A stretch of 63,783 nt of DNA, filler included, from Basidiobolus ranarum (lineage: Eukaryota), in NCBI GenBank assembly GCA_040143965.1. It is 3 parts of 3 records of this genome, joined end to end, with 100 filler letters (N's around TTAATTAATTAA, not from the genome) between each part and the next. Parts side by side here need not be neighbours in the genome. Positions count along the whole stretch, not along the records: positions 42,614 to 63,783 come from JASJQH010000212.1; 2 more parts are not named here. The stretch is one strand, 5' to 3'. A model generated the notes under the pieces. The model saw only the letters and a program-made list of their open reading frames with translations, was not told the origin of the DNA and searched no databases. A program made the translations under genes and the position numbers. Shown here piece by piece: positions 21,227 through 56,309 of the stretch (position 1 is the stretch's first letter; each line of letters opens with the position of its first letter).

Positions 21227-21326
21227 NNNNNNNNNNNNNNNNNNNNNNNNNNNNNNNNNNNNNNNNNNNNTTAATTAATTAANNNNNNNNNNNNNNNNNN
21301 NNNNNNNNNNNNNNNNNNNNNNNNNN
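21227..21326. other. Assembly gap with artificial linker
   Basis: 44 N + TTAATTAATTAA (stop codons in all six frames) + 44 N. Confidence 0.97.
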
Positions 21327-42513: not shown

Positions 42514-42613
42514 NNNNNNNNNNNNNNNNNNNNNNNNNNNNNNNNNNNNNNNNNNNNTTAATTAATTAANNNNNNNNNNNNNNNNNNNNNNNNNNNNNNN
42601 NNNNNNNNNNNNN
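42514..42613. other. Assembly gap with artificial linker
   Basis: 44 N + TTAATTAATTAA + 44 N. Confidence 0.97.
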
Positions 42614-43948: not shown

Positions 43949-46248
43949 ATGAAGACGGTGGAAACCAAAAAGAAAGTTAAACCTCGGACCAAAAAAGAGA
44001 AACATGGTATAGTAGTAAAAAGTGAAGAAGTTCTTCCTGAACTAAACCCCGAAAACTCCCTTAAAAGAAAAGGTTCTGATAACCTTGAAAAAGACTTGGA
44101 AAAGAAGAAAAAAAAGAAAAAAACTCTTCAAGAGGATACACCTTTAGATAAAGAGTCGAAAAAACAAAAGAAATCTAAAGGTAAAGGTAAAGAGAAGAAT
44201 GATAAGGTGATCTCCCCAGAACAATCAAAAGTAAAAAACGAAATCGAGCGTACTCCGAATTTGTCTTTAAGTATTGTACCTGCCACATTACCTTCTCCCT
44301 CAAAAATTTCTTTATCAGACCAGAAGAAAGCAAAAAAGCAGAAAAAAGAAAAGAAGAATAAAAAGGAAAAGAACGAATCCAAGAAAGTAGATAAAGAAGA
44401 ACCTAAGGATAAAGTACAAAAGAGCGAATCCAAGGAGAAAGAAGGAAAGAAGCGGAAGAAGGAAAAGAAAGAGAGAAAGGAGAAGCAGGAAGAAAGTAGT
44501 GAAAACTTCTCTGAGATAAAGTCGAAGTCTAGTAATCTGAAGGAATGTGATATCAAAAATGGACCAAAACCTATTGATAACGCGTCTGTTTCCGTCCTCT
44601 CAACAATTACTCCAGAATCTGCCTCGAATACAATCAATCAAAAGAATGTCAAAGAAGACCTTATACTATCCAATAAGCTAAAGAGTGAAGCATCAAACAG
44701 CATGGCAGCTATCGTAAAAGCATCTCCTACTACGACTGATTTGGGCACTCAACATAAACGGAGAGTGTCTACGCGCTCTGTGTCCAAAGCCAAAGAAGCA
44801 ACTCCAATTTCAATACCAACCACAGCAAGTGTTCCAAAGAAAGCAACCCCAATTTCAATACCAACTACACCGGGTGTACCAAAGAAAGCAACTCCAATTT
44901 CAATACCAACTACAGCGAGTGTACTAAAGAAAACAAGCACTATTTCCAATCCCACTACACTTGGAGCACCGAAGAAGCCTACACCAGTCAAAGCACGAAA
45001 GAAAGCAGCACCGCGTGCTAAGCGAAGCAGTAAATACCCGCTCACTCCCGAAGTGATTCCAGATGATTCCGATGAAGAGTTTAGTAAGAGACTTCCTGAA
45101 GTGTGTGGTGGCAGTGTATTTATGGATGAGACTGAAGAGGAAAAGGCTCAGCGAATCCGCTCATACTCCGATTTTCAACGTACACGCGACGAGGTTATTG
45201 GGCATCCAGGGTTGATAGAATATAATTCTGACGGCATCAGCAAAGTTCAGCAGAAGTTTTTCACCCCGAAAGAAATCAAAAGTCTGGAGGACACTGGGTA
45301 CGCCATAAGAAAAGGGAAATTCAGTAAGGACGAGGATGTCATCATCACCAAGGCAGTCGAGAAATATTTAGAGGTATGTAACGCATGGTTGATTTGAATT
45401 TGGTGTTTGAAATTGACAAGTGAATTGGCGGTTAGGAACGCGGCAAAGGAGTTGAGCTGATTCAATACATCTTGTTCAAAAAGTATAAAGATAAAGACAA
45501 ATCCGGTGGAGAGGAAACCGATAAAGTCATCACACTGTGCCAAGAGGTCGGCAAAGTGGTCCCCACTCGGACTCTGAATGCAATCTATTTGCGTCTGCGT
45601 CGTAGATATCACCCAGACAACTACGGTGGACGATTTACGAAGGAGCAAGAGATGCTGCTCCATCAATTGACTCTTATACACGGTAAAGATTGGAAAACAA
45701 TAGGTCCTTTGCTTGGACGGGAGCCTAGTAGCTGTCGTGATCGTTGGCGTTTCCGGAAACTCCAAGAGTATCGGACAGGTCCATGGACTGAAGAGGAAGA
45801 AGAAAAACTCAAAAAAATTGTATACAGTTTGACCATCGATAAAGGACGCTCTGCAGAGCGTGACATCTCCTGGGAAGTAGTTGCTGAGAAGATGGTCACT
45901 CGCGATGCATCCCGATGCAGGTCCTACTGGTACTCTGAGCTCTGTATGAAGCTTAAAGAAGCGCCCAGTGAAAAGGAAGGCCTGGCCAATACACGAGAGT
46001 TCTTAAAACGAATATATGAATCCAATGTTAAGCACGACTCTCATATTCAATGGAGAGAACTTATTGATGATAAATGGAGTCCCTGGACCCCACCCTTTAT
46101 GCAGAAGACCTGGTATCAATTAAAGTCCCTAATCACTGACGCTGAAGACATGAGCTTTGAGCAAGTACTTCAGTTCTTGATGCGTCAAAATGACAAGTAT
46201 TTCGAGCACCTATCGCTAGAAGAGCCCCCTCTCAAAGGCTCCGATTAA
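43949..46248 (+). CDS. Myb/SANT-domain DNA-binding protein, Reb1/Nsi1/TTF1-like, 2 exons (intron 45374-45435)
   Basis: Lys-rich N-terminus; IRKGKFSKDED, GRFTKEQEMLL..HGKDWKTIGPLLGREPSSCRDRWR, TGPWTEEEEEKL, ISWEVVAEKMVTRDASRCRSYW. Confidence 0.88.
44792..44971 (+). repeat. Coding tandem repeat, 4 x 45 bp (KKATPISIPTTxxVP)
   Basis: Units start at 44792, 44837, 44882 and 44927. Confidence 0.9.
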
Positions 46249-49022: not shown

Positions 49023-52000
49023 ATGGAGAGACGCAAAATACCCGAGACTATAACGCAATTTGTTCAGGCAGCACAATGTTTAGACTTTCATGGTAAGTAC
49101 TAGCCCACATCTTACCTTGTTCTCAAATTTAATTGTTCGTCTGTTAGCGTCTAATGACTATTCAGAGCTCTCGGTGGCCTTACAGGTAATGGTTGTAGTT
49201 AGGTTACTTCTCCATGGGGACAATATCATAAATAATTTCCTTATTTTATCCATAAGAATTTGACCGTTTCTCTTCTAAGCTCGAATACTTTAAATCAACT
49301 TCATTTTCTTGCCAAACTATCAGCAAATCCATATGCTGAACGCAATGCATTGGTGTTATACGAATTCATAGATATATTGATCCAAATCTTCGAAGCAGAA
49401 TATACTCAAAGCAAAGTTGTATCCAACATAATAGTTATTTTAACACAACTCGGTAAGGAACTCGTTACGCTATTCACTTTATCGTTCTCGAAAGACTAAG
49501 GATCAGTATTTAGGAAATATTCCTAGTCTTCGTCAGGTTATACACCAAAGGAAAAAGGGTATTATTGATATTGTATCCGTTCGACTACAATCCACTTCAA
49601 ACGACAAAGAATGGTTTCTTAAGGTAAGATCGCATCTAAATAATTTCTACGATTTTCTTAGCGAGGTAACCTGACGTACATGTTGTAGTATATCAGTTTA
49701 CTCAAGGCTCTTACGTATGAGGTTGAGATACTGTATCCAACACCAGAGTCCATTCGGCTTATCAAGTTCCTTCGAGATGTGATGTACGTACAAGTAACAA
49801 AAACACCCTGTTAATATATATGTCGATACTAATTCATGGTATATAGTAAGAAAGCAACGGATAAGGAGGTTCTCGGAGACACTCTCGCACTCTTTAGTCA
49901 TCTTGTTAGATTTAATGAGTCGATCAAAGACAATATTGTTGCAACACCGCATATGTCGTCTTTCTACAGAACATTAATTCAATCACTAAGCAGTGATGAT
50001 CTTTCAGTGATCGTTTATTCTCTGAATATACTTTCAGACCTCATTATTAACGACAAATTGGGTGAGATGGTAAGAATGGTAGTTTCTATTTATTGTTGCG
50101 ATCCGTGATTTAATTGAAGTATTCTTTGTAGCTGTTCAATCGTAACAACATCTCTCAAACCTTCAAACTGATCTTTAACCTGATAACCAACGGGAAATCA
50201 GTGGAAATTGTACGACCTTCTGTAAACCTTGTTGGCGCAATAACATCCAGCGGAACTATCAAAGAATACTTGGACAAGTATAGCCCATTTACCTTTGATA
50301 TTGTTAGTGGATTCGTGCTAAATGTCCTCTGATTATTACTATAGCTACCAATATTTAGAGGTATGTCTACGCCGAGTAACCGCTTTAATATCTTCTGGAA
50401 GACATCAGCTCGTTTTACCGGTAAGAAGAAGAATTGTTGATTGATCAGCGAGGTTCATTTCGACCAGTTCTAACCAATCTCTATGCTAACCTCATCTGAA
50501 CGACAGGCTCTTGACCTCTTATCCATCGTGGTCCAAAGGAAAATTTCTACCGAGACTGTATTCCGTATTATGCATGATTGTGGAGTGTTTTCTGCTTGCT
50601 TGCAGTGGGTTCAATGTCGAATTCGAGAGATAAAACGAGGCAACTACTTGGAAGATATTGAGTGGCCATATCTAATTGACGATATCTGTACCTTTTTCAG
50701 GGACGTATTGAAGGTAGAGGGTTCATGTTCATCATTTCCATGATAACTATGGAGACTAACACCATGACAGGCTGAGTTCACTAGCCATTCAAAATCAGCC
50801 ATCAAGGATACAAGTCGAGCCGGTGTCAGTATTGATCATGACGATTTGGAGTTGGTGATCACTTCTGTACTTGACTCTATAGCCGATGTGTTCATGGATG
50901 GATACTCATTTTTGGAACACGATCTTTTTGTTTACATTCAAATATCTCCGATGTTCGAGCTAGTCAATTATATCCTTTTTTCTCTTACTCTCTTTAGTCA
51001 GATTTACAACGAATCGTCTCCTATTCTTAACCACATAGCTTCTACATTTAGCTGAGATTAATCTGTTGCAGAGACACTTGGCAGATCGCTTAGATATTCA
51101 AAAGTTACTCCAGACTGTCAGGGTATGTTTGCCAGAGAAGAACACCAATCTTCTAACCCCCAAAGAGGAAACCACCATATTTTTCCTTTGGTTGGTCGTC
51201 AAATATTACGAGTATCAGCAGACCGTCGGAACATCCCACGAAGTTAGTCTATCCACCCAATTTCTTCTTGAGAGTGACTATTACTGAATGTACTTTTTAC
51301 TCTCATAGGGTCGTAATGCAATGGCCAATCTGGTGGATCTAGAGGTAGTCGCGGACCTCATAGCAGTAGTGATATCTTGTTCCACTCAAAATACCATTGT
51401 CAAATGTGCATTCGAGATCCTTGGTGCATTATCATGTCAACAACAGGTGCAACAAAGGTATTCCCGGTAACGAGTATTTCTTGGGATGCATTCAGTGTTA
51501 ATATTTTCTACCAAGGTTGTGCCGTATTAATGAGAATCGCTGTCTAATGACTTCAGCCAATGATTCATCCATGGGTGTACCAAAAGTTACTCCATTTCTA
51601 GGAACGAGGACCTCATTTACGCAAACCCACATCAGCGAAGGTTAGTGACAAGCATATCGTTGATCAAGAGAAATCTCTTTCTTGAGATAGTATTAACTCT
51701 TACATCTTCTACTTAGATGATATCAAAGCACGACTTGAAAGTGAGCTTAATTCAGCGAAAATTGAGATGAGAAAAGAATTATTGGTAATTTCATTTGAAT
51801 TCTTATTGTATGGTACATGTACCAACTGAATCTCTTTAATTTAAACCCAAAGGCTCAAGATGAACATTTTGAGGAAGTTAAACAAGATTATGAAGAGCAA
51901 TTGGAAGCATTTCAGGTATTGATTCCTTTTTATTCGCCTGTATCTCATTGGATTCTCCGCTAACTTTCAACACATATTCAGAGCGAGACAAAGCATCTCA

Positions 52001-53241
52001 GAGAGCTTCTAGAGGCTAGAACCTTGGCACTGAATCAAACCGAATCTTTGATAACCGAACTTCGGGGTACACACACCCGAATTGAACAAGATGTATGTCT
52101 ACTCACTATTCACTGTATAGATCAAGGCAGACAGAAACCGATATTAACATTTGAATATTGATCAGATCACCAGTTACAAAGATAAAGCCCTAGAGTTCGA
52201 GACGAATTACAATAGGTTAAAGTTCGATTTCGATAAGAAAATCGAAGATAACGAACGACTAAGAAGTGAATTGAAGAGTATGAAAGAAGAAGTAAGTATA
52301 TTTATCATTTCAAAGAGTGATCTATCAACTCACTCGAATTCTTGATATTACTAGATAGCTATAGCTTACACCGAAAGAGAGAATCTCCAATGCTCATTAG
52401 TCACTTGTCAAGGTGATTACGAAAATCAAAAACAAGAGTAAGTGGTACAATGATTGCATCGATCTTGATCCCATCCCACTTACATTCTTTCCCTATTCAA
52501 TTTGATGCACCAAGAATGGACCGGGTTCAACAAGAATATTCCACAGTAACATCCAAGATGAAGGAATTAGAAGATAGCCTTCAAACCATGAAAGAGCAAA
52601 ATCGACAACTTGAAGAAGAAAATTCCATGTAAGTGATATAATTATGAAATTCATTTCGATACAATACATCTAATACCTCTACTTTCTATAGTAATATGAG
52701 TAAAATTTTGGAAGATAAATACAAATATGAGTCTTTGACAGATGGTTTGTTCCCCGATATCTCATTATTTTAATTGAAGGTATTTCATTTGTTAATCTCT
52801 TTGATTTCATAAATCATTTAGAAAACATCACACTTCAAAGCAAGTATTCCAAAGAAAGGGAGAGATATGAATCGATAAAACAACAATATGATGTTTACAA
52901 GGATGAACATATGGAACAGAATCTGACTCTCCTAAGAAATCAAAAAGAAATTGAAGACAAGGTGATTCTATGAACTTGATGATATATCTTTTATTGATGT
53001 ACTAATGGATGAAATTCTTTATTAGTACGATTGTGTCTTGGATGAATTGAACCGGCATAAAAATGAACTTGAGAAAGCAAACTCGGTGATTCAGGAATTG
53101 GAAGAAGAACTTGAAAAGCATGAACATATTGCCTCTATGATGATGAACATGTACAATGGTAAACGATCGGATAATGGCGCGAGTATAAGCACCAATTCAA
53201 GTACGAATTCTAGACGAAAATCACGTTTATCAAATGAATGA
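49023..53241 (+). CDS. CIP2A: CIP2A-like protein (N-terminal armadillo repeats, C-terminal coiled coil), many exons
   Basis: ISLLKALTYEVEILY and SFYRTLIQSLSSDDLSVIVYSLNILSDLIINDKLGEMLFNRNNISQTFKLIFNLITNG closely follow the animal CIP2A ARM region as I recall it (SFYRTLITLL..VVVFALSILSSL...GEKLF...NIHQTFQLIFNILING). Long coiled coil ending EELEKHEHIASMM. Confidence 0.82.
50970..51045 (+). other. U12-type AT-AC intron in the CIP2A-like gene
   Basis: 5' site ATATCCTTT, branch site TTCTTAAC at 51024-51031, 3' end TCTAC. Removal joins FELVN-Y-LAEINLLQRHL in frame. Confidence 0.88.
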
Positions 53242-53474: not shown

Positions 53475-55761
53475 TTAAAAGTCACCCATATCATCATCAT
53501 CGTCATCCATGTCAGCCTCTTCAATTTCTTTAGCCAATTCACGTTCTCTTTCACGAGCAGCCTCCGCTGATTCCAACTCTTTACGATGAGCATTCAATGG
53601 GAAACGCATAGCCTATATGGACTCATGTTAGTCAATAGACAAAGACAGATTAACCATTAGTTATGTTACCTTGATTGAGTCATTATGAAGATCAAGACAG
53701 AAGCTAATCCGTTGATGGAAGGCATTTTGTGGTTCATTTGTGGAATAAATATCTACGTTTTCTTTAGATTTGATGAATCCATTTTCATGATCAATAGTGG
53801 CATCAATAACTCCATCTTTGATAGCCTATTTTTAGCAACAATCAAAAGAGTTGAGTTATCATTCATCTAAGTTTTCTTGAATAGATTCTTTACCTTAGCT
53901 ACGATATACTCCGCATCTTCCTCGCTGTCAAGGTGAAGCTTCAGACAGATGTCACGTAAAGAGATACGTGAATATGAAAGACTAATCATACGGATACCGG
54001 TTTTGATCACATTGTGACGAAGTCTAGAATCCATTCAAATTAGTTCAGATCCAGTTAACGACAATATCTCAAAGATAGAAATTACCTAAGGATAAGGGTA
54101 TAATTCTTGTCCGCACGGAAAACCTTTCCGAATTCCGCCAGTGTATCCTGGAACTTGGTCAAATCACCAATACGAACAGCTAGTAATCCCATGATATTAT
54201 TAAAGTGAAGATTTCATGCCATTAATTTCCCCTGAACCTACCTTGAGTGATATGAAGATAAGGAATCAATGCTTTACGAAGAACTGGTTGCCTAAAGATA
54301 GAACGCTCGGGGATCTCTCCCATGAGTAATTGTACAATGATCGCCAATTTATGAACCTATCGGGATGTAAGTAAAGGCTATGGATTCGATGAGATAAACA
54401 GTCAACTTACAGTTTGTTGGAACCCAGCTGTAATCACGTTTTGAGGTGCTTTACGAATAGCTTGTAGGAGATGGGCGTGGGAAGAACTATAGTCAAGTTG
54501 AAGTGCCTTGATACGTCCTGATCAATTAATAATTCACGTAAGTATAATGCTCATTCATTCTAGAAAGAAGCTGTTATATAGTTTACCAAGATAATACATA
54601 TATCTGGCGAATTGATTGTTGCCAGCAGATTCAGGGAAGGTAGTCTTGGTTACCAACTTATCCGCTTGATCATAAAGGTTGTAGTGGAAGTAATTCCTCA
54701 ATAAAAGATTGAGAAGTGTTGCCTAAATTCCATCGACACATTAGTATACTTTGTGGATCGATTAGTTTCAAAAATTCTCGATACAAACCTGGCAGTCATC
54801 ATCACGTCTTAGGGTAGCGGTTCTCTGGGCAGCAAGAAGTTTACTAGATGTTTCAACATTAGTTAAAGGAGAGCAAAGTCAATCAAAAATATGCTTGTCA
54901 TTACGGTCTGATTTCAGCTAATCTGTCTGTGAGTTCATAGGCTCTAGAATGGTAGAAGTAAATACGAGCAGCAATTTGATCAAGAGAGCGTCTATTATAA
55001 TTATGGACAGCGTCAAGTAGATAGTTGGCAAGTTCGATGCTCTATAATGAAATATATCTCAGTTAGACGAGGTGAGTTTCTTCTACTAATAAATTAAGGG
55101 TAACATTACTTTGTTGTATTCCTTCTGGTCCAAAAGATAAGTAAGAACCAGTAGACCAATATACAGTTCAATTTCGGGAAGTGCTTCTGAAACTTTTACG
55201 TCGTGGGTATCTACTTCCATTGATTCCGAAGTCTAATTTTCGTATTTATCATAAGTATATTGGACAATGCTTGCAAATCAAAACAGTAAATGACCTACAT
55301 CAAGGTAACTAAGAAGTTTGCTTTTCATTCCATGCTCTAAATAAGTCAATTTGGTTTGAGTTTCCAAGTTCAAAAAGAATATCAAGTAATCTCTATAGAT
55401 GAAATCTATACTTTAAATTAGGATAACAATCAATACCTTTGGGGAATTTGAGTTGAATAGCTTGTTTGATAACATCGGAGGTAATCCGTCTTCTAAGTGA
55501 AGCAGTAATACGAAGAGCTCTAGTAGTGAAACGTGACTCGGTAGTTAAAACTGCCTTCTCCAATAAATAGAAATTATGCTTCAAATCTGGCAAAGGGTTG
55601 ATTTTAGTGTTTATAGACGAAGTACTGTAAAAGTTTCTCCACTAACCTCCTAACACAAGAGCAGAAGATTCGGAAGCTTTTTGTTCTTCCGATTTTTCTT
55701 CTACCATTGGTATGATTTGGTCATCTGCAGAGGGTTTGGTATCAGTCTCCATGTTGGTCAT
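53475..55761 (-). CDS. RPN3: 26S proteasome lid subunit Rpn3/PSMD3, multi-exon
   Basis: [96 protein letters not shown], acidic tail DDDDDMGDF*. Confidence 0.93.
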
Positions 55762-56309
55762 TTTAGGATATTATTCTCTACACAGAGGAGTTGTTATGAG
55801 AGTTCTATCACGAAATCATTTCTACCTGCTTCTGGGGGTTTACGCAACGGGAATTTTTGGTGACGTCTTCGAAAAAAGCCCCCTTTTTTTAAATGTCATC
55901 GCATTTATGGAAATTTTATCGATGATTAATTTTGGAAAAATATCGAGAAAGAAATCATTGATCAAAGAGGTGTTGGTTTAAATATTAATCAAGTCATTAA
56001 TTGAATGATGAGAGTATCATACAACTTGAGGTAAGCAATATCCGATGATCTACTCTAACCATTCACACATTTACTAGTAACACGTTCAAGAACATCCATG
56101 CCAACACACCCCTGCCTAAGCAACCTTCGATCATTGAATTGGCAAGTTTATCAAATACATTCCATAAATAGGGGAGGCGAAGCATAATAAAACCACATCT
56201 ATCTTAAACTGTACGGGAAAGTGGGAGTGAATGAGATCTTAGGATGGTATTTACTTGCTACTAAGCCTTCTCGATGAAAAGAATAGAATGAACAAAAAAG
56301 AGGTTGATT

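What the first reader, a model, noticed from the sequence alone, without database searches (positions are those of the whole stretch)
49023..53241. A fungal homologue of the animal oncoprotein CIP2A
Seen: ARM-like exons followed by a long coiled coil. Several segments match my recollection of human CIP2A (LQKLTYNVKI vs LKALTYEVEI; SFYRTLI; NIHQTFQLIFNILING vs NISQTFKLIFNLITNG; C-terminal ELNKHSHMIAMI vs ELEKHEHIASMM). Established: CIP2A inhibits PP2A-B56 and acts with TOPBP1 to tether broken chromosomes in mitosis, and to my knowledge has no orthologue in budding or fission yeast. Inference: the CIP2A-TOPBP1/PP2A module may be ancestral to opisthokonts and retained in this lineage.
Basis: partly seen in the sequence, partly recalled or inferred. 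Interest (0 to 1): 0.75.

Follow-up and report, generated by a model that had tools for sequence, protein, structure and literature searches.

The report
Fungal CIP2A with conserved TOPBP1 partner
The fungus Basidiobolus carries a true counterpart of the human cancer-linked protein CIP2A, and its TOPBP1 protein keeps the short docking sequence that CIP2A binds in human cells, which suggests that this pair for holding broken chromosomes together during cell division is older than animals.

Summary
Confirmed: window 49023-53241 (+) is a single-copy, 22-exon, 934-aa CIP2A orthologue of Basidiobolus ranarum. It matches Pfam CIP2A_N (E 7e-34), its only PDB sequence hit is human CIP2A, and its model matches the whole ARM domain (Z 27.6, next 17.6). 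It is not Uso1/p115. Ten of 21 introns sit at the same codon and phase as in animal genes, including an AT-AC minor intron also present in human and mouse CIP2A. That a fungus has CIP2A is not new to databases: UniRef already names this protein, and chytrids, choanoflagellates and an oomycete have it too, so the family reaches beyond opisthokonts. What I did not find in print: this genome's TOPBP1 is of the long animal type and keeps, between BRCT5 and BRCT6, the CIP2A-docking motif (7 of 8 mapped residues) plus a second copy of its core. The CIP2A head residues tied to PP2A-B56 binding are not kept (0 of 7), and polymerase theta was not found. Best reading: a TOPBP1-binding mitotic scaffold older than animals; PP2A inhibition is unsupported. 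Binding and function are inferred, not shown.

The parts
49023..53241 (+). CIP2A gene, 22 coding exons, 934 aa: 49023-49092, 49148-49185, 49257-49452, 49514-49623, 49689-49783, 49847-50069, 50132-50277, 50345-50420, 50507-50713, 50771-50969, 51046-51242, 51309-51457, 51516-51640, 51717-51784, 51853-51915, 51982-52092, 52166-52291, 52355-52437, 52515-52628, 52692-52744, 52822-52961, 53026-53241
   Evidence: exact spliced mapping of P0001 to the window; one PF21044 locus in the genome
49041..51549 (+). ARM-repeat domain, residues 7-580, matching human CIP2A 4-560
   Evidence: VIA-align Z 27.6, rmsd 4.0, 498 aligned to 5UFL; Foldseek ranks 1-2 are 5UFL chains
49847..50277 (+). exons 6-7, the best conserved ARM surface (residues about 170-293); overlaps the region predicted in a review to bind TOPBP1 (human 150-270)
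   Evidence: 24 of 50 identical to hamster 201-250, the peak of the protein; L213, L229, N250 nearly invariant in 50 rows; review passage
50970..51045 (+). intron 10, 76 nt, AT-AC, U12 (minor) type, phase 1 in codon Y454; same codon and phase as the minor intron of animal CIP2A
   Evidence: only 1 of 21 introns with an 8/8 U12 donor; Y454 = hamster T427; animal genomic loci; human and mouse
50970..50978 (+). U12-type donor ATATCCTTT
   Evidence: the same nine bases are listed for human and mouse CIP2A
51025..51031 (+). U12-type branch site TCTTAAC
   Evidence: can pair with the genome's U12 snRNA with one G-U pair (read); human and mouse sites hold the same seven bases
51865..53133 (+). long coiled coil, residues 638-899
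   Evidence: one continuous helix in the model; introns 15 and 16 match animal positions exactly, intron 21 within one codon
53107..53154 (+). C-terminal motif E891-Y906; I898-Y906 aligns with the human tetramer motif 884-892, with M905 at the place of L891
   Evidence: alignment; motif defined in preprint section 6

Best explanation
The gene encodes the vertically inherited fungal orthologue of CIP2A (shown, about 0.98). It most likely works as in animal mitosis: an ARM head on a long coiled-coil dimer docks onto a linear motif between BRCT5 and BRCT6 of the genome's long TOPBP1 (inferred from conservation on both sides, about 0.75); C-terminal ends join dimers into tetramers (inferred, motif partly kept); the oligomer holds broken or under-replicated chromatin together during mitosis (inferred from animal work, about 0.6). 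The fungal linker has two copies of the core motif, which could engage the two heads of one dimer (speculation). PP2A-B56 inhibition through the N-terminal head is probably not part of the conserved job.
For: Orthology: Pfam E 6.8e-34; only PDB sequence hit 5UFL; fungal versus animal profiles probability 100, 720 columns; fold Z 27.6 against 17.6 for the next chain and 15.6 for p115; 10 of 21 introns at exact codon and phase in each of two animal loci, null mean 0.17, maximum 4 in 100,000 draws; the 8 named fungi fall on one side of one branch, support 98. Partner: P0106, 1567 aa, has seven Pfam-detected BRCT domains with an eighth inferred, its last pair matches human TOPBP1 at E 2.5e-32, whereas yeasts keep only BRCT1,2,4,5 (PMC6175577). 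F-D-x4-L-x2-L occurs twice in P0106 (F754, F799), both in the BRCT5-6 linker; two or more copies arose in 5 of 20,000 shuffles, and 1 copy in 69,387 residues of the other proteins in hand. Human F837, D838, V839, L843, L846 have the spacing of F754, D755, T756, L760, L763; F826, L827, F832, F836 of a binding-dead mutant have the spacing of F744, L745, F750, F754; expected count of the whole pattern 3e-6. Identity peaks in the predicted TOPBP1-binding stretch. In human cells TOPBP1 recruitment by CIP2A is independent of PP2A (PMC9288427).
Against: No experiment exists for the fungal proteins, and no RNA data could be read. I compared the motif with residue numbers from papers, not with an aligned human TOPBP1 sequence, and the two papers differ by one in numbering (F836 against F837). 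V839 is T in both fungal copies and L891 is M; the preprint reports that L891 changes other than Ile disturb tetramers. The four human positions 778-794 of the binding-dead mutant were not matched. Polymerase theta, a main animal effector, was not detected (the only family-A polymerase found is Pol gamma), though exon-wise searches are weak. A simple export-signal pattern found nothing in residues 556-660. The conserved ARM surface may serve B56 as well (recalled from Wang 2017, not held). I have the TOPBP1 motif from one fungus only. The tree is FastTree with long-branch warnings.
Confidence: 0.65

Rival explanations
1. The protein's main conserved job is to bind and inhibit PP2A-B56, as the name says; the TOPBP1 motif serves something else.
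For: Two B56 loci are in the genome. N250, nearly invariant, lies on a surface that I recall being mapped for B56 binding (Wang 2017; recalled, paper not held).
Against: K8, K18, K21, E23, E34, K40 and K490, the residues cross-linked to or needed for B56 binding in PMC9974998, read T, D, A, gap, Q, N, Y here: 0 of 7; identity over hamster 1-50 is 5 of 49, so that alignment is itself unsure. That paper claims head conservation only from humans to lancelet.
Confidence: 0.15
2. A true orthologue whose function has drifted: a general ARM/coiled-coil scaffold (spindle pole, vesicle tether or other) no longer tied to mitotic DNA damage.
For: The C-terminal half of the ARM domain is far diverged (4 to 11 identities per 50 residues past hamster 300); Pol theta not found; the nearest other family by language-model features is the tether Uso1/p115, 0.91-0.93.
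Against: The docking motif in TOPBP1 sits in a linker outside any Pfam domain and would be expected to decay without its partner, yet it is kept and doubled; the C-terminal motif is kept too.
Confidence: 0.17
3. It is Uso1/p115 or another ARM plus coiled-coil protein that only resembles CIP2A.
For: Same architecture; Uso1/p115 clusters score 0.91-0.93 by features and p115 reaches Z 15.6.
Against: No Uso1 Pfam match in P0001; CIP2A clusters score 0.96-0.97; Z 27.6 at rmsd 4.0 against 15.6 at rmsd 13.4; the genome's Uso1 is a separate gene, E 5e-71, on contig C13; shared introns with animal CIP2A.
Confidence: 0.01
4. The gene came from an animal host (the fungus lives in amphibian and reptile guts; recalled) by transfer or contamination.
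For: The best non-Basidiobolus hits by score are animal proteins.
Against: Only 26% identity to vertebrates against 62% to B. meristosporus; introns are 55-86 nt; the row groups with Jimgerdemannia, Dispira and chytrids, not with vertebrates; Jimgerdemannia shows the same intron read-through.
Confidence: 0.01

Closest known systems
Human CIP2A (KIAA1524; PDB 5UFL; Pfam PF21044)
   Same: ARM domain over its whole length, long coiled coil, C-terminal hydrophobic motif, similar length (934 against 905 aa), 10 of 21 intron positions shared with animal genes, the AT-AC phase-1 minor intron.
   Different: Head-domain lysines and acids tied to B56 binding not kept; second half of the ARM domain diverged; Met at the L891 position; no export signal found by a simple pattern.
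Animal CIP2A-TOPBP1 mitotic tethering complex (bioRxiv 2021.02.08.430060; PMC9288427; bioRxiv 2026.08.22.746418)
   Same: Long TOPBP1 with BRCT6 and BRCT7/8, and the F-L-x4-F-x3-F-D-x4-L-x2-L docking pattern between BRCT5 and BRCT6.
   Different: Thr for V839; a second copy of the core motif 45 residues downstream instead of the human upstream 774-798 patch (not matched); Pol theta not detected; MDC1, SLX4 and DDIAS not looked for.
CIP2A_N proteins of other early-diverging fungi, choanoflagellates and oomycetes (UniRef automatic names; eggNOG 7MGG7 and InterPro PF21044 as used in the 2026 preprint)
   Same: Same family; this very protein is already labelled 'CIP2A N-terminal domain-containing'.
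   Different: None is described functionally in the papers I could search; partner motif and intron were not reported there.
Yeast Dpb11/Rad4
   Same: Orthologue of the partner; NCBI names P0106 'dpb11'.
   Different: Yeasts keep only BRCT1,2,4,5; P0106 keeps the C-terminal BRCTs and the docking linker.
Minor (U12) introns of Basidiobolus meristosporus (Larue and Roy 2023, PMC10639083)
   Same: Genus already known as the fungus richest in minor introns (249); U11, U12, U4atac and U6atac are found here.
   Different: CIP2A is not named in that paper's text or its one readable supplement.

Membership tests
CIP2A | Pfam CIP2A_N above the curated cut-off | tested here: met
   117.8 bits against 26.3; residues 66-311 on profile 30-273 of 544
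CIP2A | ARM fold matching 5UFL over the full domain | tested here: met
   Z 27.6, rmsd 4.0, 498 aligned, model 7-580 on chain 4-560; the model was built from an alignment of CIP2A relatives, so this is not fully independent
CIP2A | long C-terminal coiled coil | tested here: met
   helix 638-899; profile match to animal CIP2A continues into it
CIP2A | orthology: single copy, vertical descent, shared gene structure | tested here: met
   one locus; tree; 10 of 21 introns exact
CIP2A | C-terminal tetramer motif (human 884-892, L891) | tested here: inconclusive
   hydrophobic pattern kept, Met at 891 position; no oligomer was modelled
CIP2A as PP2A-B56 inhibitor | head-domain residues K8, K18, K21, E23, E34, K40 and K490 | tested here: not met
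   0 of 7 kept, on a weak N-terminal alignment (5 of 49 identical)
CIP2A as PP2A-B56 inhibitor | B56 subunit present | tested here: met
   two PF01603 loci, C7010 and C1175
CIP2A-TOPBP1 module | TOPBP1 with BRCT5-BRCT6 linker | tested here: met
   P0106
CIP2A-TOPBP1 module | docking residues F826, L827, F832, F836/837, D838, V839, L843, L846 | tested here: met
   7 of 8 identical by spacing, Thr for Val
CIP2A-TOPBP1 module | upstream patch 774-798 | not tested
   no human TOPBP1 linker sequence was available from the tools (one search found no PDB match)
CIP2A-TOPBP1 module | physical binding and mitotic foci | not testable with these tools
   needs pull-down and microscopy
CIP2A-TOPBP1 module | polymerase theta as effector | tested here: inconclusive
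   no PF21099 match, controls silent too; only Pol gamma under PF00476
U12-type intron | RTATCCTTT donor, CCTTAAC-like branch site near the 3' end, AT-AC ends | tested here: met
U12-type intron | minor snRNAs in the genome | tested here: met
   U11 84.6 and U6atac 66.3 bits over cut-off; U12 49.4 and U4atac 46.6 bits full-length but under the cut-off of 53
U12-type intron | spliced at these ends in RNA | not testable with these tools
   no read data for this window; an in-frame GT-AG alternative (50963-51038, weak donor) exists
Uso1/p115 | Uso1_p115_head domain | tested here: not met
   absent from P0001 at E<=1; true Uso1 elsewhere

The most novel reading that the evidence does not exclude
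The CIP2A-TOPBP1 tether for broken mitotic chromosomes is an ancient eukaryotic module, older than the fungus-animal split and perhaps as old as the last eukaryotic common ancestor. Its original job is TOPBP1 binding, PP2A inhibition being a later animal addition. It works in Basidiobolus without polymerase theta, was kept in fungi whose nuclear envelope opens in mitosis, and was lost together with the C-terminal half of TOPBP1 and the minor spliceosome on the way to yeasts, which is why yeast genetics never found it.
Probability: 0.35. Interest if true: 0.72.

Novelty: new member of a known kind. Interest (0 to 1): 0.5.

Why it matters
CIP2A-TOPBP1 is a synthetic-lethal target in BRCA-mutant cancers and is discussed as animal biology. 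A fungal pair in which the TOPBP1 docking motif and the matching ARM surface are kept, while the B56-binding head is not, is a natural experiment on an open question: whether CIP2A is first a PP2A inhibitor or first a TOPBP1-bound chromosome tether. It supplies divergent sequences that mark the interface residues, a chimera test that a published assay can run at once (fungal tail or head in human CIP2A-null cells), and a reason why yeasts miss this pathway. The mere presence of the family in fungi is already in databases, and minor introns are common in this genus, which caps the surprise.

Tried and rejected
Complex prediction of residues 1-580 with P0106 732-815: no answer, score 0.00 against a mark of 0.34, run without my alignment, partner fold uncertain, peptides untested by the tool; it is no evidence either way. 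My hand-drawn first gene model was wrong (53 stops) and was dropped. Word-index protein searches returned only the genome's own proteins; relatives came from phmmer. A PDB search with the TOPBP1 linker found nothing, and the Atlas search with it gave only leads under 0.9. Alignments A2 and A3 were too diverse for the locus scan. The maximum-likelihood tree did not finish; FastTree was used, on 64 rows, leaving out proteins under 400 aa (among them P0002), near-duplicates and four hits without the N-terminal domain or partial. My own spliced alignment with an animal profile chose a GT-AG intron 50963-51038 instead of the AT-AC one; I reject it because its donor GTCAAT is poor, while the AT-AC form has a perfect U12 donor and branch site, fits the database protein and matches animal and Jimgerdemannia positions. 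A search for a canonical second U6atac gave 3 matches against 9 for the reversed control: none. Sequencing runs were not available, so splicing is unverified. Supplements of PMC8848931 and PMC12956336 could not be read; Wang 2017 is not held. Open mitosis in B. ranarum could not be confirmed from the held text (abstract only). Uso1/p115 identity and transfer from an animal host were considered and rejected (see rivals).
Full report
The gene. One exon retrieved a single database protein at 100% identity, P0001, 934 aa, NCBI hypothetical protein K7432_005399 of Basidiobolus ranarum, already auto-named 'CIP2A N-terminal domain-containing' by UniRef. P0001 maps exactly onto the window in 22 exons with 21 introns of 55-86 nt, provided that intron 10 (50970-51045) is read as AT-AC (without it the mapping stalls at residue 454). 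The genome has one PF21044 locus. The downstream neighbour on the - strand is RPN3/PSMD3.

It is CIP2A. Pfam CIP2A_N scores 117.8 bits, E 6.8e-34. The only PDB sequence hit at E<=0.01 is human CIP2A 5UFL, residues 63-321 on 46-302. A profile of 10 fungal-side rows matches a profile of 30 animal-side rows with probability 100 over 720 columns, well into the coiled coil. The AlphaFold2 model (mean pLDDT 76.7) ranks the two 5UFL chains first in Foldseek and aligns to 5UFL at Z 27.6, rmsd 4.0, 498 residues, model 7-580 on chain 4-560; the next chain has Z 17.6 and p115 15.6 at rmsd 13.4. The model was built on an alignment of CIP2A relatives, so the fold match is not fully independent. Uso1 is a separate gene.

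How widespread. phmmer found 92 cluster representatives at E<=0.001. I looked up 30 of the 91 others: 8 animals, 8 fungi (B. meristosporus, Dispira, Jimgerdemannia, Borealophlyctis, Rhizoclosmatium, Powellomyces, Spizellomyces, Dinochytrium), 6 choanoflagellates, 1 oomycete (Pythium oligandrum) and 7 without an organism name. None of the 23 named is an ascomycete or basidiomycete, but 61 were not looked up, so absence from yeasts is not shown. Of 12 non-animal or unnamed N-terminal-domain hits scanned, all 12 match PF21044 and 11 pass its cut-off. A FastTree tree of 64 rows puts the 8 named fungal rows on one side of a branch (support 98) and the 7 named animals on one side of another (96), with long-branch warnings: vertical descent, not transfer from a vertebrate host. 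A 2026 preprint (10.64898/2026.08.22.746418; passages and sections 6 and 23 read, supplements closed) already pools 490 opisthokont and 86 oomycete sequences but presents them as metazoan and never uses the word fungi; its taxonomic supplementary figure, which I could not see, may include fungi.

Shared gene structure and a shared minor intron. Intron 10 is the only 1 of 21 with a perfect U12 donor and has a U12-type branch site; all four minor snRNAs are found, U12 and U4atac just under their cut-offs. Human and mouse CIP2A are listed as minor-intron genes with the same nine donor bases (PMC6717393, supplement rows), and the mouse intron is phase 1 (PMC12956336, passages). Y454 aligns with hamster T427 in MAFFT and in an ungapped 24-column block of the profile alignment. 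A metagenome scan gave 15 loci; 7 span that codon: AT-AC phase 1 in L031, L030 and L023 (the last two share the same intron), GT-AG phase 1 in L035, and no intron in L022, L024, L025, which have few or no introns and may be transcripts. In L031 the exon ends in the same three bases as in human and mouse. L023 has lost the 8 other introns that L030 has in that span and keeps only this one. Two database proteins stop just there with the read-through of such a donor: a Jimgerdemannia isoform and a Lamellibrachia model. In all, 10 of 21 window introns match L035, and 10 of 21 match L030, in codon and phase, with 4 more within four codons; random placement gives 0.17 on average and at most 4 in 100,000 draws. 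Against this: an in-frame GT-AG alternative seven bases upstream exists and my own aligner chose it, and no RNA could be read. Minor introns are common in this genus (PMC10639083, passages and one supplement; earlier notes of this scan), so the intron counts as proof of orthology and age, not as the surprise.

The partner. A BRCT search led to contig C248 and protein P0106, 1567 aa, named dpb11 by NCBI. It has seven Pfam-detected BRCT domains, an eighth inferred at the BRCT4 place, and its last pair matches human TOPBP1 at E 2.5e-32; yeasts keep only BRCT1,2,4,5 (PMC6175577, passages). In human cells CIP2A binds between BRCT5 and BRCT6, through F837, D838, V839, L843 and L846 (PMC10566317 and bioRxiv 2021.02.08.430060, passages). 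P0106 has F-D-x4-L-x2-L twice, at F754 and F799, both in that linker and each followed by Ser-Pro; two copies arose in 5 of 20,000 shuffles and the pattern occurs once in 69,387 residues of the other proteins in hand. The preprint's binding-dead mutant changes F826, L827, F832 and F836, spaced as F744, L745, F750 and F754 here; the whole pattern is expected 3e-6 times by composition. So 7 of 8 mapped residues are identical, with Thr for Val. The papers differ by one in numbering, I had no human linker sequence to align, and the upstream human patch (774-798; PMC9288427, passages) was not matched. On the CIP2A side identity peaks at hamster 201-250, 24 of 50, inside the stretch that the review predicts to bind TOPBP1.

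What is not kept. Two B56 genes exist, but of K8, K18, K21, E23, E34, K40 and K490 (PMC9974998, passages) 0 of 7 are conserved, on a weak alignment. The C-terminal tetramer motif keeps its hydrophobic pattern with Met at the L891 place. Polymerase theta was not detected: no PF21099 match, and the single family-A polymerase found is Pol gamma; the assembly has 13,754 contigs and the search is exon-wise, so this is weak. A simple export-signal pattern found nothing in residues 556-660.

How it most likely works. Shown: orthology, architecture, a long TOPBP1 with the docking pattern. Inferred from animal work: coiled-coil dimers whose ARM heads bind that motif, joined tail to tail into tetramers that hold broken or under-replicated chromatin together in mitosis; in human cells this role does not need PP2A. 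In animals CIP2A reaches chromosomes only when the nuclear envelope breaks down. B. ranarum has many small chromosomes (PMC2106268, abstract only) and, as I recall, an open mitosis, which would fit; oomycetes, recalled as closed, would not. I put the TOPBP1-bound tether at 0.65, a drifted scaffold at 0.17, a PP2A inhibitor first at 0.15.

Novelty. The family's reach into fungi and oomycetes is in databases. In the held library I found no paper on a fungal CIP2A, on the fungal TOPBP1 motif or on the age of this intron: CIP2A+fungi+ortholog, 11 papers (listing, one read by passages); CIP2A+TOPBP1+fung, 5 (listing); CIP2A+minor spliceosome, 2 (both read by passages); the deep-lineage search listed 25 of 2,688, none holding CIP2A. 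Most subscription journals, Wang 2017 and several supplements were out of reach, and minor-intron databases may list the intron. Verdict: a real, new member of a known family, with evidence that the CIP2A-TOPBP1 pair predates animals; interest 0.5.

Noticed in passing
L005:1501-1634 (G000:C89): The one U6atac found reads GUCGAGA where the Rfam consensus has AAGGAGA, the box thought to pair with the minor donor (role recalled); no canonical second copy was found. Odd for a genome rich in minor introns.
   Followed up: partly
window 32922 (+) and 20220 (-): Two further candidate U12-type GT-AG donors, each with a CCTTAAC branch-like site downstream.
   Followed up: no
P0002 (B. meristosporus ORX90677.1): This model covers only residues 480-798 of P0001, starting shortly after the AT-AC intron: probably a gene split by annotation that missed the intron.
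   Followed up: partly
L035:6030-6107: In this animal-like locus the intron at the minor-intron position is an ordinary GT-AG intron: an apparent minor-to-major conversion.
   Followed up: partly
L030:1158 and L023:250: A second U12-like donor (GTATCCT) upstream of the first aligned exon in these two loci.
   Followed up: no
window 53475-55770 (-): Proteasome lid subunit RPN3/PSMD3, tail to tail with the CIP2A gene.
   Followed up: yes
window 45436-46248 (+): Myb-domain open frame with two repeats.
   Followed up: no
window 21227-21326 and 42514-42613: Runs of N: the window is joined from separate contigs; its start is C210 and the CIP2A gene lies on C212.
   Followed up: yes
P0101: A member of a choanoflagellate CIP2A-like cluster is named 'ribonuclease HI' by its source, probably a misannotation.
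   Followed up: no
G000:C7010 and C1175: Two B56 (Rts1-type) loci in the genome.
   Followed up: no
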